IMG/VR virus record: IMGVR_UViG_3300029167_000033
Direction: 5' to 3' (one strand)
Source of the DNA: a virus
Lineage: Duplodnaviria > Heunggongvirae > Uroviricota > Caudoviricetes
Length of the DNA stretch: 4,270 nt
Shown here one piece after another: positions 1-4,270 of the stretch. Both the position numbers and the translations under genes were made by a program. The first letter of the stretch is position 1. Each line of letters starts with the position of its first letter. The notes beneath the pieces were generated by a model. The model saw only the letters and a list, made by a program, of their open reading frames with translations. It ran no database searches and was not told the origin of the DNA.

Positions 1-620
1 ATCTGACAGAGGTCGGTGGTGAACGTTATTTTTTCTGTAATGAGCAGAACGAAAAAGGTGAGCCGGTTACCTGGCAGGGGCGGCAGTATCAGGCATACCC
101 CATTCAGGGGACGGGATTTGAACTGAACGGCAAGGGCAGTGCTGCCCGTCCGACACTGACGGTTTCTAACCTGCACGGAATGGTCACCGGGATGGCGGAA
201 GACCTGCAGAGTCTGGTCGGCGGAACGGTGGTCAGGCGTAAGGTTTACGCCCGTTTTCTGGATGCGGTGAACTTCGTCAACGGAAACAGTGACGCCGATC
301 CGGAGCAGGAGGTGATCAGCCGCTGGCGCATCGAGCAGTGCAGCGAACTGAGCGCGGTCAGTGCCTCTTTTGTACTGTCCACGCCGACGGAAACGGACGG
401 TGCTGTTTTTCCGGGGCGCATCATGCTGGCTAATACCTGCACCTGGACCTATCGCGGTGATGAGTGCGGTTATCACGGTCCGGCGGTCGCGGATGAATAT
501 GACCAGCCGACGTCCGATATCACGAAGGATAAATGCAGCAAATGCCTGAGTGGTTGTAAGTTTCGCAATAACGTCGGCAACTTTGGCGGCTTCCTTTCCA
601 TTAACAAACTTTCGCAGTGA
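1..620 (+). CDS. L: Phage minor tail protein L (tail tip), 5'-truncated by the window edge; Cys-rich C-terminus
   Basis: Open frame 3 runs from the window start (first full codon at 3) to TGA at 618-620 with no stop. The translation (LTEVGGERYFFCNEQNEKGEPVTWQGRQYQ...MVTGMAEDLQSLVGGTVVRRKVYARFLDAVNFVNG...CSKCLSGCKFRNNVGNFGGFLSINKLSQ) matches my recollection of lambda gpL almost residue for residue. The track ORF 180..620 is only the Met-initiated tail of this frame. Confidence 0.95.
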   Translation, partial: LTEVGGERYFFCNEQNEKGEPVTWQGRQYQAYPIQGTGFELNGKGSAARPTLTVSNLHGMVTGMAEDLQSLVGGTVVRRKVYARFLDAVNFVNGNSDADPEQEVISRWRIEQCSELSAVSASFVLSTPTETDGAVFPGRIMLANTCTWTYRGDECGYHGPAVADEYDQPTSDITKDKCSKCLSGCKFRNNVGNFGGFLSINKLSQ

Positions 621-625
621 ATCCC

Positions 626-1369
626 ATGACAGAGACAGAATCAGCGATTCTGGCGCACGCCCGGCGATGTGCGCCAGCGGAGTCGTGCGGCTTCGTGGTG
701 AGAACACCGGAGGGGGAAAGATATTTTCCCTGCGTGAATATCTCCGGTGAGCCGGAGGAGTATTTCCGGATGTCGCCGGAGGACTGGCTGCGGGCAGAGA
801 TGCAGGGTGAGATTGTGGCGCTGGTCCACAGCCACCCCGGTGGTATGCCCTGGCTGAGTGAGACCGACCGGCGGCTGCAGGTGCAGAGTGATTTGCCGTG
901 GTGGCTGGTTTGCCGGGGAGCGATTCACAAGTTCCGCTGTGTGCCACATCTTTCCGGGCGGCGCTTTGAGCACGGGGTGACGGACTGTTACACGCTGTTC
1001 CGGGATGCTTACCATCTGGCGGGGATTGAGATGCCGGATTTTACGCGGGAGGATGACTGGTGGCGTAACGGTCAGAATCTCTATCTGGATAATCTGGAGG
1101 CCACAGGGCTGTATCAGGTGCCGTTGTCAGCGGCGCAGCCGGGCGATGTGCTGCTGTGCTGTTTTGGTTCATCGGTGCCGAATCATGCCGCCATTTACTG
1201 TGGTGACAGCGAGCTGCTGCACCATATTCCTGAACAACTGAGCAAACGAGAGAGGTACACCGACAAATGGCAGCGACGCACACACTCCCTCTGGCGTCAC
1301 CGGGCATGGCACGCATCTGCCTTTACGGGGATTTACAACGATTTGGCCGCCGCATCGACCTTCGAGTGA
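626..1369 (+). CDS. K: Tail assembly protein K; N-terminal JAMM/MPN (JAB) metallopeptidase-like domain plus C-terminal NlpC/P60 (C40) cysteine peptidase domain
   Basis: ORF in frame 2 ending at TGA 1367-1369. JAMM signature H-x-H-x7-S-x2-D is read directly as HSHPGGMPWLSETD (nt 827-868). NlpC/P60-like Cys in VTDCYTLF (tgt 986-988) and His in PNHAAIY (cat 1184-1186). Start chosen at ATG 626 (MTETESAIL...), 5 nt after the L stop; alternatives are GTG 617 (overlaps the L stop as GTGA) and ATG 770 (the start I recall being annotated in lambda, 199 aa, preceded by GGAGGAG). The 3' end is firm, the 5' end is uncertain. Confidence 0.88.
   Translation: MTETESAILAHARRCAPAESCGFVVRTPEGERYFPCVNISGEPEEYFRMSPEDWLRAEMQGEIVALVHSHPGGMPWLSETDRRLQVQSDLPWWLVCRGAIHKFRCVPHLSGRRFEHGVTDCYTLFRDAYHLAGIEMPDFTREDDWWRNGQNLYLDNLEATGLYQVPLSAAQPGDVLLCCFGSSVPNHAAIYCGDSELLHHIPEQLSKRERYTDKWQRRTHSLWRHRAWHASAFTGIYNDLAAASTFE
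754..760 (+). promoter_or_regulatory. Internal Shine-Dalgarno-like GGAGGAG preceding the in-frame ATG 770 within K
   Basis: GGAGGAG at 754-760, 9 nt upstream of the in-frame ATG at 770 (MSPEDWL...). It could drive an internal or alternative initiation giving a 199-aa product; it is also simply coding sequence (PEE) of the longer K frame. Confidence 0.4.
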
Positions 1370-1908
1370 AAACGGGGTCCGAAGCCATCCGGGCGCTGGC
1401 CATGCAGATCCCGGCGTTTCGTCAGAAACTGAGCGACGGCTGGTATCAGGTACGGATTGCCGGGCGTGATGCCGGTGAAACGGAATTATCAGCCCGTCTT
1501 AATGAACCGCTGGCAAATGGTGCTGTGATCCATATCGTGCCGCGTCTGGCAGGAGCCAAAAGTGGCGGTGTGTTTCAGGCTGTGCTGGGGGCGGCTGTTA
1601 TGGCGGTTGCTATATGGATGCCGGGGGTAGGAATTATGGCGAGTAATCTGCTGTTTTCTCTCGGTGCCAGTATGACGCTTGGCGGTGTTGCACAGATGCT
1701 GGCCCCTAAACCCAAAACTCCCCGCACACAGACAACGGATAACGGCAAACAGAACACCTATTTTTCTTCACTGGATAATATGGTTGCCCAGGGCAATGTT
1801 CTGCCCGTTCTGTACGGTGAAATGCGCGTGGGATCACGTGTGGTATCTCAGGAGATCAGCACAGCAGATGAAGGTGATGGTGGTCAGGTTGTGGTGATTG
1901 GTCGCTGA
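1267..1908 (+). CDS. I: Tail assembly protein I; N-terminal ubiquitin-like domain, diglycine, then hydrophobic Gly/Ala-rich segment
   Basis: ATG 1267 to TGA 1906-1908 in frame 1, 213 aa. The translation (MAATHTLPLASPGMARICLYGDLQRFGRRIDLRVKTGSEAIRALA...NGKQNTYFSSLDNMVAQGNVLPVLYGEMRVGSRVVSQEISTADEGDGGQVVVIGR) matches my recollection of lambda gpI. AGAGG at 1251-1255 is a possible SD, 11 nt upstream. The gene overlaps the 3' end of K by 103 nt in a different frame, as I recall for lambda. Confidence 0.93.
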   Translation: MAATHTLPLASPGMARICLYGDLQRFGRRIDLRVKTGSEAIRALAMQIPAFRQKLSDGWYQVRIAGRDAGETELSARLNEPLANGAVIHIVPRLAGAKSGGVFQAVLGAAVMAVAIWMPGVGIMASNLLFSLGASMTLGGVAQMLAPKPKTPRTQTTDNGKQNTYFSSLDNMVAQGNVLPVLYGEMRVGSRVVSQEISTADEGDGGQVVVIGR

Positions 1909-1926
1909 TGAAAAACGTTTTATGTG

Positions 1927-1947
1927 AAACCGCCTGCGGGCGGTTTT
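1927..1947 (+). other. Perfect 8-bp stem / 4-nt loop hairpin in the I-J intergenic spacer, followed by a T-rich tract
   Basis: AAACCGCC (1927-1934), loop TGCG (1935-1938), GGCGGTTT (1939-1946), then T at 1947 and ATCGTTTA. The stem is fully complementary; the GC core is 5 bp. It sits between the I stop (1908) and the J SD (1957). Confidence 0.4.
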
Positions 1948-1956
1948 ATCGTTTAT

Positions 1957-1965: not shown

Positions 1966-4270
<2,305 letters not shown>

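What the first reader, a model, noticed from the sequence alone, without database searches (positions are those of the whole stretch)
1267..1704. I has a Ubl-like N-terminus ending in a diglycine, followed by a long hydrophobic Gly/Ala-rich segment, adjacent to a JAMM-domain protein
The I N-terminal ~98 residues are followed by SGG (G100-G101, nt 1564-1569) and then a ~45-residue hydrophobic stretch VFQAVLGAAVMAVAIWMPGVGIMASNLLFSLGASMTLGGVAQMLAP (nt 1570-1704). Comparative-genomics work has proposed that gpI-family proteins carry a ubiquitin-like beta-grasp domain and that the JAB domain of gpK may process it. The diglycine at the domain boundary and the neighbouring JAMM peptidase seen here fit that idea, which to my knowledge remains incompletely tested biochemically.
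Basis: partly seen in the sequence, partly recalled or inferred. Interest (0 to 1): 0.5.

Follow-up and report, generated by a model that had tools for sequence, protein, structure and literature searches.

The report
Lambda gpI ubiquitin-like precursor, gpK protease
This is the ordinary lambda-type tail-tip gene pair K and I, where I is made with a removable ubiquitin-like head and K carries the matching deubiquitinase-type protease; the idea was published in 2006 and has since been reported as tested.

Summary

Cryo-EM of lambda finds only the C-terminal part of gpI in tails. [quoted passage not shown] An F-pyocin preprint shows the same N-terminal removal.

One correction: G100-G101 is not the family's conserved Ubl terminus. 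Across 65 diverse homologues G100 is Gly in only 21. P92-x3-G96-[A/S]97 is essentially invariant and aligns with the terminal GG of MoaD. The scissile bond is therefore more likely at G96-A97/K98, though this is not proven.

Verdict: already known, low interest.

The parts
626..1369 (+). Gene K, tail tip assembly protein (247 aa): JAB/JAMM domain followed by an NlpC/P60 domain
   Evidence: Pfam Prok-JAB on residues 4-98 (nt 635-919) and NLPC_P60 on residues 111-224 (nt 956-1297). PHROG phrog_30, minor tail protein. Weak match to NCBIfam desampylase, E 2e-7, below the family cut-off.
827..868 (+). JAMM zinc-site motif of K, H68-S-H70-PGGMPWL-S78-ET-D81; the upstream catalytic Glu E19 is at nt 680-682
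   Evidence: Regular-expression match in the translation. The same HxHx6-8SxxD motif is kept in K homologues of at least 14 motif-distinct clades.
1267..1908 (+). Gene I, tail tip assembly / plug protein precursor. 213 aa from ATG 1267, or 200 aa if translation starts at ATG 1306 (M14)
   Evidence: ORF list. E 2e-107 to lambda gpI in PDB entries 8IYK/8IYL/8K35/8XCG. Pfam PF06805. phrog_32, tail assembly protein.
1267..1369 (+). K/I out-of-frame overlap: 103 nt, or 64 nt if I starts at 1306. I is in the -1 frame relative to K
   Evidence: Coordinates. The same overlap is annotated in lambda NC_001416 and phage 434. Overlaps of 64, 58, 58, 23 and 4 nt occur in distant loci. This is the least variable stretch among 57 close relatives (pi 0.011-0.03).
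1248..1255 (+). Shine-Dalgarno-like GAGAGAGG, 11 nt upstream of ATG 1267
   Evidence: Sequence. Annotated as the ribosome binding site of I in the curated phage 434 record. Distant relatives instead carry GGAG/GAGG 8-9 nt before the M14-equivalent ATG. That motif reads TGGCGT here.
1306..1557 (+). Ubiquitin-like beta-grasp domain of I (residues 14-97), MoaD/ThiS type
1540..1557 (+). Family-invariant end of the Ubl, P92-R-L-A-G96-A97. This is the best candidate for the JAMM recognition and cleavage site
   Evidence: In 65 homologues of 35-58% identity: P92 65/65, G96 64/65, position 97 is A49/S12/G2, and the P-to-G spacing is 3 residues in 65/65. A profile alignment places residue 73 of the 74-residue MoaD chain 3rpf_C on G96 (weak, E about 1). 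AF2 confidence collapses at residues 97-99.
1564..1569 (+). G101 is the N-cap of helix H1
   Evidence: Present as stated. G100 is Gly in 21/65 and G101 in 58/65. The spacer between position 97 and G101 varies from 1 to 6 residues. Helix H1 starts at residue 101 in the model.
1561..1707 (+). Charge-free Gly/Ala-rich hydrophobic segment S99-P147, forming two predicted helices: H1 residues 101-117 (nt 1567-1617) and H2 residues 123-145 (nt 1633-1701)
   Evidence: Kyte-Doolittle 19-residue means reach 2.04 over H1 and 1.2-1.4 over H2. The AF2 helices have pLDDT about 62-66. G108, G133 and G140 are invariant. The corresponding lambda helices H1/H2 are described as predicted transmembrane, resolved in the closed tail and lost on opening (PMC11101478). 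This is the most variable part of the K-I region among close relatives, with indels (pi 0.13-0.25).
1639..1905 (+). Part of I that corresponds to the gpI segment seen in lambda virions (lambda 135-223 = window 125-213): helix H2, the Lys/Pro linker, the plug (window 149-165, nt 1711-1761) and the C-terminal strands
   Evidence: Alignment to 8IYK and 9E7M chains. Resolved ranges 135-223 and 134-222 are given in PMC10721106 and PMC12617516. The plug is lambda residues 159-175 in PMC11101478. AF2 is unconfident here for the monomer, which is expected for strands that only fold against gpJ.
1969..4269 (+). Gene J (N-terminal 767 aa; runs off the window), the partner into which the I C-terminus inserts
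   Evidence: Pfam FNIII-A_GpJ, Phage-tail_3, Ig_J and Ig_J_second.

Best explanation
I is made as a precursor with four parts:
- a MoaD/ThiS-type ubiquitin-like beta-grasp domain (residues 14-97);
- a short flexible junction (97-100);
- a hairpin of two hydrophobic, Gly/Ala-rich helices (101-117 and 123-145);
- a Lys/Pro linker plus C-terminal plug and strands.

The C-terminal part docks into the J/L tail-tip cone as a trimer and holds the C-terminal coiled coil of the tape-measure protein. K is encoded by the overlapping upstream gene and carries an intact JAMM (deubiquitinase-type) metalloprotease domain. It recognises the Ubl domain and cuts it off once I sits in the tip complex. Only the hydrophobic helices plus the plug remain in the finished tail, and K itself is not a virion protein. 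On receptor binding the plug opens and the helices drop towards the outer membrane.

Shown here:
- the domain anatomy, the beta-grasp fold prediction and its MoaD/SAMP neighbours;
- the intact JAMM motif;
- the conserved K-I adjacency and overlap;
- the conservation pattern at the junction.

Taken from the literature:
- only the C-terminal part of gpI is seen in tails;
- K-dependent cleavage occurs, and is timed after docking.

Inferred:
- the Ubl acts as a removable solubility or steric tag for the hydrophobic hairpin and as an assembly checkpoint;
- the scissile bond lies at the invariant G96-A97/K98 rather than after G100-G101. I put this at about 55-60% against 25-30%.
For: - Identity: Pfam Lambda_tail_I, Prok-JAB and NLPC_P60. 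About 96% DNA identity to lambdoid phages annotated L, K, I, J. 84% protein identity to lambda gpI in 8IYK.
- Protease: JAMM motif E19 and H68xH70x7S78xxD81. K's nearest curated NCBIfam family is the archaeal desampylase.
- Linkage: K with both domains lies directly upstream of I in about 48 of 50 loci from at least 14 motif-distinct clades. PHROG families of K-I and JAB-I fusion proteins exist (phrog_28576, phrog_35166).
- Literature: the hypothesis is in PMC1779556. gpK is absent from virions, and gpI is seen only from residue 135, 134 or 101 onward. [quoted passage not shown] The PA0640 N-terminus is present in stalled tip precursors and absent from mature F-pyocin, and deleting the gpK homologue PA0639 gives tip-less tubes.
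- Site: P92-x3-G96-[A/S] is invariant, whereas G100 is variable and the spacer to G101 is 1-6 residues. The MoaD C-terminus aligns with G96-A97.
Against:
- The Davidson result is available only as a conference summary with no site given.
- The F-pyocin preprint found that PA0640 expressed alone in E. coli loses its N-terminus to unknown host proteases. Removal therefore need not require K in every setting.
- K has a second peptidase domain, NlpC/P60, with an intact Cys-His-His. Sequence alone cannot say which domain cuts.
- For the site: the MoaD profile alignment is statistically weak (E 0.6-1.3). G101 is itself 89% conserved. 'Resolved from 101' is a second-hand statement about 8IYK.
Confidence: 0.8

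Rival explanations
1. One reading: K's JAMM domain cuts after the diglycine, G101|V102, in the way deubiquitinases cut after ubiquitin's GG.
For: KSGG is present in this phage and in lambda. G101 is Gly in 58 of 65 homologues. Helix H1 starts right there, and the lambda model is said to begin about residue 101.
Against: G100 is Gly in only 21 of 65 homologues, and only 33 of 65 have any GG between positions 97 and 104. The distance from the Ubl core to G101 varies by 5 residues, whereas P92-to-G96 is fixed. The terminal GG of MoaD maps to G96-A97. If residue 101 is in the mature model, the cut is N-terminal to it.
Confidence: 0.27
2. The Ubl domain is not removed by K. It is either trimmed non-specifically by host proteases or stays attached and is simply disordered in cryo-EM maps. 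On this view K acts only as a chaperone or through its NlpC/P60 domain.
For: PA0640 expressed alone in E. coli lost its N-terminus to unknown host proteases. Cryo-EM cannot tell a disordered segment from an absent one. Ge and Wang treat the N-terminal domain as 'unseen' rather than absent.
Against: The conference report states directly that gpK cleaves the domain. In mature F-pyocin the N-terminal peptides are undetectable by mass spectrometry, yet they are present in stalled precursors. The JAMM catalytic motif and the Ubl G96 are both conserved and co-located across distant clades, which is hard to explain without catalysis.
Confidence: 0.1
3. The N-terminal domain has another function: a sulfur-carrier or conjugated modifier like ThiS, MoaD or SAMP, or the missing peptidoglycan-degrading enzyme of lambda as Ge and Wang speculated.
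For: The structural neighbours are sulfur carriers and modifiers. The speculation about the gpI N-terminus is in PMC11101478.
Against: The domain's C-terminus is not free; it continues into the rest of I. No E1-like or E2-like gene is in the L-K-I-J module here or in related loci. An 84-residue beta-grasp with no hydrolase motif matches no lytic enzyme family.
Confidence: 0.03

Closest known systems
Phage lambda gpI / gpK (TAPI/TAPK of Iyer, Burroughs and Aravind 2006; Pfam PF06805; PDB 8IYK, 8IYL, 8K35, 8XCG, 9E7M)
   Same: Same genes in the same L-K-I-J order, with the same 103-nt K/I overlap. I is about 84% identical, with the first 66 residues and the last 85 almost identical. The AGAKSGGVFQ junction and the JAMM motif are the same.
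   Different: A mosaic patch at nt 1467-1650 (I residues 67-128) diverges from lambda. The loop between the two hydrophobic helices is 10 residues shorter, giving 213 aa against 223. There is no functional difference that I can see.
F-type pyocin tip plug PA0640 with PA0639 (PDB 25VF chain 9; bioRxiv 10.64898/2026.02.24.707460) and the F7 pyocin THIP (PMC12874032)
   Same: Homologous protein (E 2e-24) with the same Ubl / two hydrophobic helices / plug layout. Only residues 127-200 are seen in the particle, and the N-terminus is removed before the tip joins the tube. The gpK homologue is needed for tip assembly.
   Different: It is a tailocin rather than a phage. The junction is G-S-K-Q-S-G, with no GG. 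The authors leave the protease unidentified.
MoaD/ThiS/CysO/SAMP ubiquitin-like proteins with their JAMM partners (archaeal desampylase HvJAMM1; Mec+/CysO and QbsD/QbsE from my own knowledge)
   Different: Those Ubls end in a free GG that is adenylated by an E1 and carries sulfur or is conjugated. Here the Ubl is a cis N-terminal fusion to a structural protein, ends in G-A, and has no E1 or E2 nearby. The K match to desampylase is far below the family cut-off (30.8 against 130 bits).
Eukaryotic ubiquitin-fusion precursors (ubiquitin-ribosomal protein fusions, polyubiquitin) processed by deubiquitinases (own knowledge)
   Same: It works the same way: an N-terminal ubiquitin fold is made in one chain with a structural protein and is clipped off by a dedicated protease during assembly.
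   Different: This is an analogy of mechanism, and there is no close sequence relationship. The phage domain is of the MoaD/ThiS type, and the protease is JAMM rather than a Cys-type deubiquitinase.
Phage T5 pb3 plug domain
   Same: It has the same position and role as the mature C-terminal part of I. It forms a trimeric plug closing the tip lumen under the tape-measure C-terminus, and it has a hydrophobic segment proposed to reach the outer membrane (PMC10721106).
   Different: In T5 the plug is an insertion within the hub protein. It is not a separate gene product, and it has no Ubl or JAMM processing.

Membership tests
Lambda tail assembly protein I family (Pfam PF06805, phrog_32) | Match to the family profile above the curated threshold | tested here: met
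   83.4 bits against a cut-off of 23.8, covering profile positions 2-83 of 83. phrog_32 E 2e-83.
Lambda tail assembly protein I family (Pfam PF06805, phrog_32) | Full-length homology to lambda gpI, including the C-terminal plug region | tested here: met
   E 2e-107 over residues 1-213 against 8IYK chain I.
Lambda tail assembly protein I family (Pfam PF06805, phrog_32) | Position in a tail-tip module between K and J | tested here: met
   L, K, I and J are identified by Pfam in that order. The same order is found in annotated phages and in distant loci.
Ubiquitin-like beta-grasp superfamily, ThiS/MoaD branch | Beta-grasp fold (mixed sheet b2-b1-b5-b3-b4 packed on a helix) | tested here: met
Ubiquitin-like beta-grasp superfamily, ThiS/MoaD branch | Conserved glycine at the C-terminal end of the domain | tested here: met
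   G96 is Gly in 64 of 65 homologues, at a fixed spacing from P92.
Ubiquitin-like beta-grasp superfamily, ThiS/MoaD branch | Terminal Gly-Gly that becomes a free C-terminus for adenylation or conjugation | tested here: not met
   The structurally equivalent pair is G96-A97 (A/S in 61 of 65), and the chain continues. The G100-G101 pair is conserved as a pair in a minority of homologues. No E1-like gene is in the module.
JAB/JAMM metalloproteases (K N-terminal domain) | Catalytic signature E...HxHx7SxxD | tested here: met
   E19 and H68-S-H70-x7-S78-x2-D81. Prok-JAB 53.2 bits against a cut-off of 25. The motif is kept in related K proteins.
JAB/JAMM metalloproteases (K N-terminal domain) | Zinc-dependent cleavage at the C-terminus of a ubiquitin-like domain | not testable with these tools
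   Reported for lambda gpK on gpI in a conference summary only (PMC12908700).
NlpC/P60 (C40) peptidases (K C-terminal domain) | Profile match and Cys-His-polar catalytic residues | tested here: met
   NLPC_P60 48.8 bits against a cut-off of 23. C121 (GVTDCYTLF), H187 (NHAAIY) and H199/H200 are present. The substrate is unknown.
Membrane-inserting helical hairpin (H1/H2 of gpI) | Two segments hydrophobic and long enough to span a membrane | tested here: inconclusive
   H1 reaches a Kyte-Doolittle mean of 2.04, above the usual 1.6. H2 reaches only 1.2-1.4. No dedicated transmembrane predictor was available. TMHMM predictions for lambda and for the F7 pyocin are reported by others. Actual insertion is unproven.

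The most novel reading that the evidence does not exclude
The JAMM domain of K may cut at the family-invariant G96-A97/K98 position, the structural equivalent of the MoaD/ubiquitin C-terminus at a fixed distance from the Ubl core, and not at the diglycine. The variable K-S-G-G spacer would then stay on the mature plug protein as the N-cap of hydrophobic helix H1. Separately, the hydrophobic hairpin is the most variable and indel-prone part of the K-I region among near-identical phages. It could be under diversifying pressure, for example from host envelope differences.
Probability: 0.5. Interest if true: 0.3.

Novelty: already known. Interest (0 to 1): 0.2.

Why it matters
The lambda gpI/gpK pair is a clear bacterial-virus case of a ubiquitin-like domain paired with a deubiquitinase-type protease, used as an assembly checkpoint. 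It bears on how the ubiquitin toolkit arose. It also explains how a phage safely handles a very hydrophobic, possibly membrane-inserting hairpin during tail assembly.

None of this is new for this window. The hypothesis dates from 2006, and the structures and a first experimental report already exist. What this analysis adds is small:
- a family-wide argument about which glycine marks the cleavage site;
- a note that several database annotations (lambda RefSeq K, PhiR49_1 I) cut off catalytic or fold-forming residues.

Tried and rejected
1. AlphaFold of a K-linker-I concatenate with a paired alignment, meant to show which glycine sits in the JAMM site. 

2. A search for natural full-length JAB-Ubl fusion proteins that could be modelled instead. 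The long 'fusion' proteins in my hit lists are pseudogene or chimera products. Some come from 2-nt deletions in the (GA)3 or (AC)2 tracts at nt 1248-1262. Others are junctions with terminase, methylase or capsid genes. None has a complete JAB domain.

3. A covariation test between 'K lacks JAB' and 'I lacks G96'. All informative loci I could fetch had a JAB-containing K, so the test could not be run.

4. Programmed -1 frameshifting from K into I. The frames are right for it, but I saw no X XXY YYZ slippery heptamer in the overlap when reading the sequence. I did not pursue it.

5. Finding loci with the 43-sequence alignment failed because it had no sufficiently conserved stretch.

6. P0238, a 2783-aa protein with 20 matches to I residues 10-45, is a repeat protein in an insect assembly and a spurious hit.

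7. The mass-spectrometry table of PMC10721106 gives one gpI peptide at 9.9% coverage without its position, so it does not help locate the cut.

8. Minus-strand ORFs under the region (1041-1316 and 1575-1757) have no support and were dismissed.
Full report
**What the window is.**
The 4270-nt window is a lambdoid tail-tip module. It holds the C-terminal part of L (to nt 620), K (626-1369), I (1267-1908) and the first 767 codons of J (from 1969). Pfam identifies all four. The DNA is 94-96% identical over its whole length to many E. coli lambdoid phages that annotate these genes as tail tip proteins L, K, I and J. IMG/VR holds contigs encoding an I protein 100% identical to the window's.

**Checking the observation.**
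- Translating 1267-1905 gives 213 residues. G100-G101 are nt 1564-1569, as stated.
- The quoted hydrophobic string is 46 residues (102-147), nt 1570-1707.
- The charge-free run is S99-P147, 49 residues between K98 and K148, with 9 Ala and 8 Gly. Only 19 of 20,000 shuffles of the protein reach such a run. 50 of 65 diverse homologues have no charged residue in the equivalent stretch.
- K has Prok-JAB (residues 4-98) and NlpC/P60 (111-224). The JAMM signature is complete: E19 and H68-S-H70-x7-S78-x2-D81. The NlpC/P60 residues C121, H187 and H199/H200 are also present.

**The N-terminal domain is a ubiquitin-like beta-grasp.**
- I predicted the structure from a 43-sequence alignment of homologues down to 32% identity. 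Residues 11-95 have pLDDT above 90. The element order is strand 14-19, short helix, strand 29-33, helix 37-47, helix 49-57, strands 60-64 and 67-69, short helix, strand 86-92.
- Foldseek gives MoaD (TM 0.67-0.71), SAMP1, ubiquitin, SUMO and NEDD8.
- Four of the 43 family members hit Pfam ThiS directly.
- No solved structure of this domain itself appeared, so the fold rests on prediction.
- Confidence collapses at residues 97-99. Two helices follow, at 101-117 and 123-145, with moderate confidence.
- The C-terminal third is unconfident in the monomer. That is expected, because in lambda those strands fold only against gpJ.

**Which glycine marks the end of the Ubl.**
I aligned 65 representatives of 35-58% identity.

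| Position | Conservation |
|---|---|
| P92 | 65/65 |
| G96 | 64/65 |
| 97 | A 49, S 12, G 2 |
| 98 | G 31, K 28 |
| G100 | Gly in 21/65 |
| G101 | Gly in 58/65 |
| G108, G133, G140 | 65/65 |

- The P92-to-G96 spacing is three residues in all 65 sequences. The spacer between position 97 and G101 varies from 1 to 6 residues. Only 33 of 65 have any GG dipeptide near the junction.
- From my own recall of the CysO (…ILPAVAGG) and MoaD (…FFPPVTGG) tails, the same P-x-x-x-G-G register applies.
- A protease that docks on the globular Ubl cuts at a fixed distance from it. The invariant G96-[A/S] is therefore the more likely recognition and cleavage point than the variable-distance diglycine.
- Ge and Wang state that the closed-state lambda tail model resolves gpI 'from position 101 onward'. 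If so, G101 belongs to the mature protein, which contradicts cleavage after G101.
- I rate G96-A97/K98 at roughly 55-60% and a cut at G100/G101 at 25-30%. Neither is shown.

**K next to I is a rule, not a coincidence.**
I looked up distant I homologues in their contigs and scanned IMG/VR with two of them. Of about 50 loci with enough upstream DNA, about 48 have an ORF with both JAB and NlpC/P60 regions directly upstream of I, carrying an HxHx6-8SxxD motif. Together with the window they span at least 14 different motif variants. The exceptions are one locus with a pRha-type insertion (L087) and one frameshifted K (L143). PHROGs also contains families whose profiles span K plus I (phrog_28576) and JAB plus I (phrog_35166), and J proteins with an I-like part (phrog_31). 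This matches the fusions described in 2006. K's JAB domain is nearest, among NCBI's curated families, to the archaeal desampylase, though far below its cut-off.

**What is already known.**
- Iyer, Burroughs and Aravind (PMC1779556) described exactly this. They reported a ThiS/MoaD-like Ubl at the N-terminus of tail assembly protein I, a conserved C-terminal glycine, a glycine-rich linker, a C-terminal domain and the flanking JAB plus NlpC/P60 protein K. They predicted that JAB releases the Ubl at the C-terminal-most glycine.
- Cryo-EM of lambda shows a trimer of gpI residues 135-223 (or 134-222) plugging the tip lumen and holding the C-terminal coiled coil of gpH. No gpK is found in virions (PMC10721106 and PMC12617516).
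[quoted passage not shown] They are visible in the closed tail and gone after LamB binding (PMC11101478).
[quoted passage not shown] This ensures ordered assembly (PMC12908700).
- A 2026 preprint on F-pyocin shows the N-terminus of the homologue PA0640 is present in stalled tip precursors and absent from mature particles. Deleting the gpK homologue gives tip-less tubes. The authors leave the protease open, and they saw spontaneous trimming in E. coli.

**Mechanism I commit to.**
I is a precursor whose Ubl head keeps the hydrophobic hairpin manageable and blocks premature joining. The C-terminal strands dock into J/L. K's JAMM domain then removes the Ubl. The remaining helices and plug bind the tape-measure C-terminus and close the tip. 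On infection the plug opens and the helices move towards the outer membrane. The anatomy, fold, motifs and linkage are shown here. The cleavage, its timing and the virion content come from the cited papers. The solubility-tag or steric-shield role and the exact bond are inference.

**Surroundings.**
- K and I overlap out of frame by 103 nt, or by 64 nt from M14. Lambda and phage 434 have the same overlap. Distant loci overlap by 4-64 nt.
- Among 57 distinct close relatives, this overlap is the least variable stretch (pi 0.011-0.03). The hydrophobic hairpin region, nt 1580-1730, is the most variable (pi 0.13-0.25) and carries indels. The spacing between the invariant G108 and G133 ranges from 19 to 39 residues across the family.
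- Against lambda the window shows a mosaic patch at nt 1467-1650 inside otherwise near-identical DNA.

**The start of I is ambiguous.**
- Distant homologues begin at the M14 equivalent, with GGAG/GAGG 8-9 nt upstream. That motif lies within K's conserved HS[IL]WR[YH] codons.
- In the window those codons read TGGCGT, so the motif is lost.
- ATG 1267 has GAGAGAGG 11 nt upstream, and the curated phage 434 record annotates that as the ribosome binding site.
- Residues 1-13 are unstructured in the model.

**Verdict.**
The feature is real, correctly read, and already known. The window adds one more near-lambda allele. The only refinement from this work concerns the likely cleavage position.

Noticed in passing
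window 1267-1369 (also 1286-1303 and 1248-1255): In distant relatives the ribosome binding site for I (GGAG/GAGG, 8-9 nt before the M14-equivalent ATG) is built into K's conserved HS[IL]WR[YH] codons. In this lambda-type clade the Arg codon is CGT instead of AGG, so that site is lost. An upstream ATG (1267) with GAGAGAGG 11 nt before it would add 13 unconserved residues. The start of I may have shifted in this clade.
   Followed up: partly
L002 (lambda NC_001416, K at 14276-14875) and L001 (PhiR49_1, I at locus 1864-2406, starting at window nt 1366): There are annotation problems in public records. RefSeq lambda K is annotated as 199 aa from an internal start, which drops the first 48 residues including the JAMM glutamate; phage 434 annotates the 247-aa form. 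PhiR49_1 starts I at the GTG overlapping K's stop, which removes the first two strands of the Ubl fold.
   Followed up: partly
window 1580-1730; mosaic patch 1467-1650 against lambda: The hydrophobic helix-loop-helix of I is the most variable part of the K-I region among 57 close relatives (pi up to 0.25, with 21- and 9-nt indels against lambda). It stays charge-free throughout. It looks like exchangeable alleles inside near-identical flanks.
   Followed up: partly
window 1248-1262; proteins P0002, P0004, P0056, P0045: Several database 'K-I fusion' proteins arise from 2-nt deletions in the GAGAGAG or ACAC tracts just before ATG 1267, which join the K frame to the I frame. Their K parts are also truncated, so they look like decaying prophages or sequencing errors rather than a programmed fusion. 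Separately, PHROGs has whole families whose profiles span K plus I and JAB plus I (phrog_28576, phrog_35166).
   Followed up: partly
window 1924-1949 (between I and J): A strong GC-rich hairpin (GAAACCGCC-UGCG-GGCGGUUUU) followed by U-rich sequence. The minimum free energy is -20.8 kcal/mol, z = -3.3, and 1 of 200 shuffles folds as well. The phage 434 record annotates a terminator between I and J, and the Ayreon hit also lists a terminator under the match. The simple terminator scan did not call it.
   Followed up: partly
window 956-1297 (K residues 111-224): The NlpC/P60 half of K keeps its Cys-His-His residues, yet no substrate is known and K is not in virions. The protease that converts the tape-measure protein gpH to gpH* is also stated to be unknown (PMC12617516). 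Any connection between the two is pure speculation.
   Followed up: no
L087 1-1475: A distant I homologue (P0176) is preceded by a pRha-family gene and a 77-aa ORF instead of K. It is the only intact locus in my sample without an adjacent JAB protein, and the contig is too short to see whether K lies further upstream.
   Followed up: no
P0238 / L086: A 2783-aa protein from an insect genome assembly scored E 7e-26 against I through 20 copies of a repeat (…LLRFCTFGDFENLSRRMDLKVFADVIRASIREQL…) that resembles I residues 10-45. This is a repeat-inflated chance match, not a homologue.
   Followed up: yes
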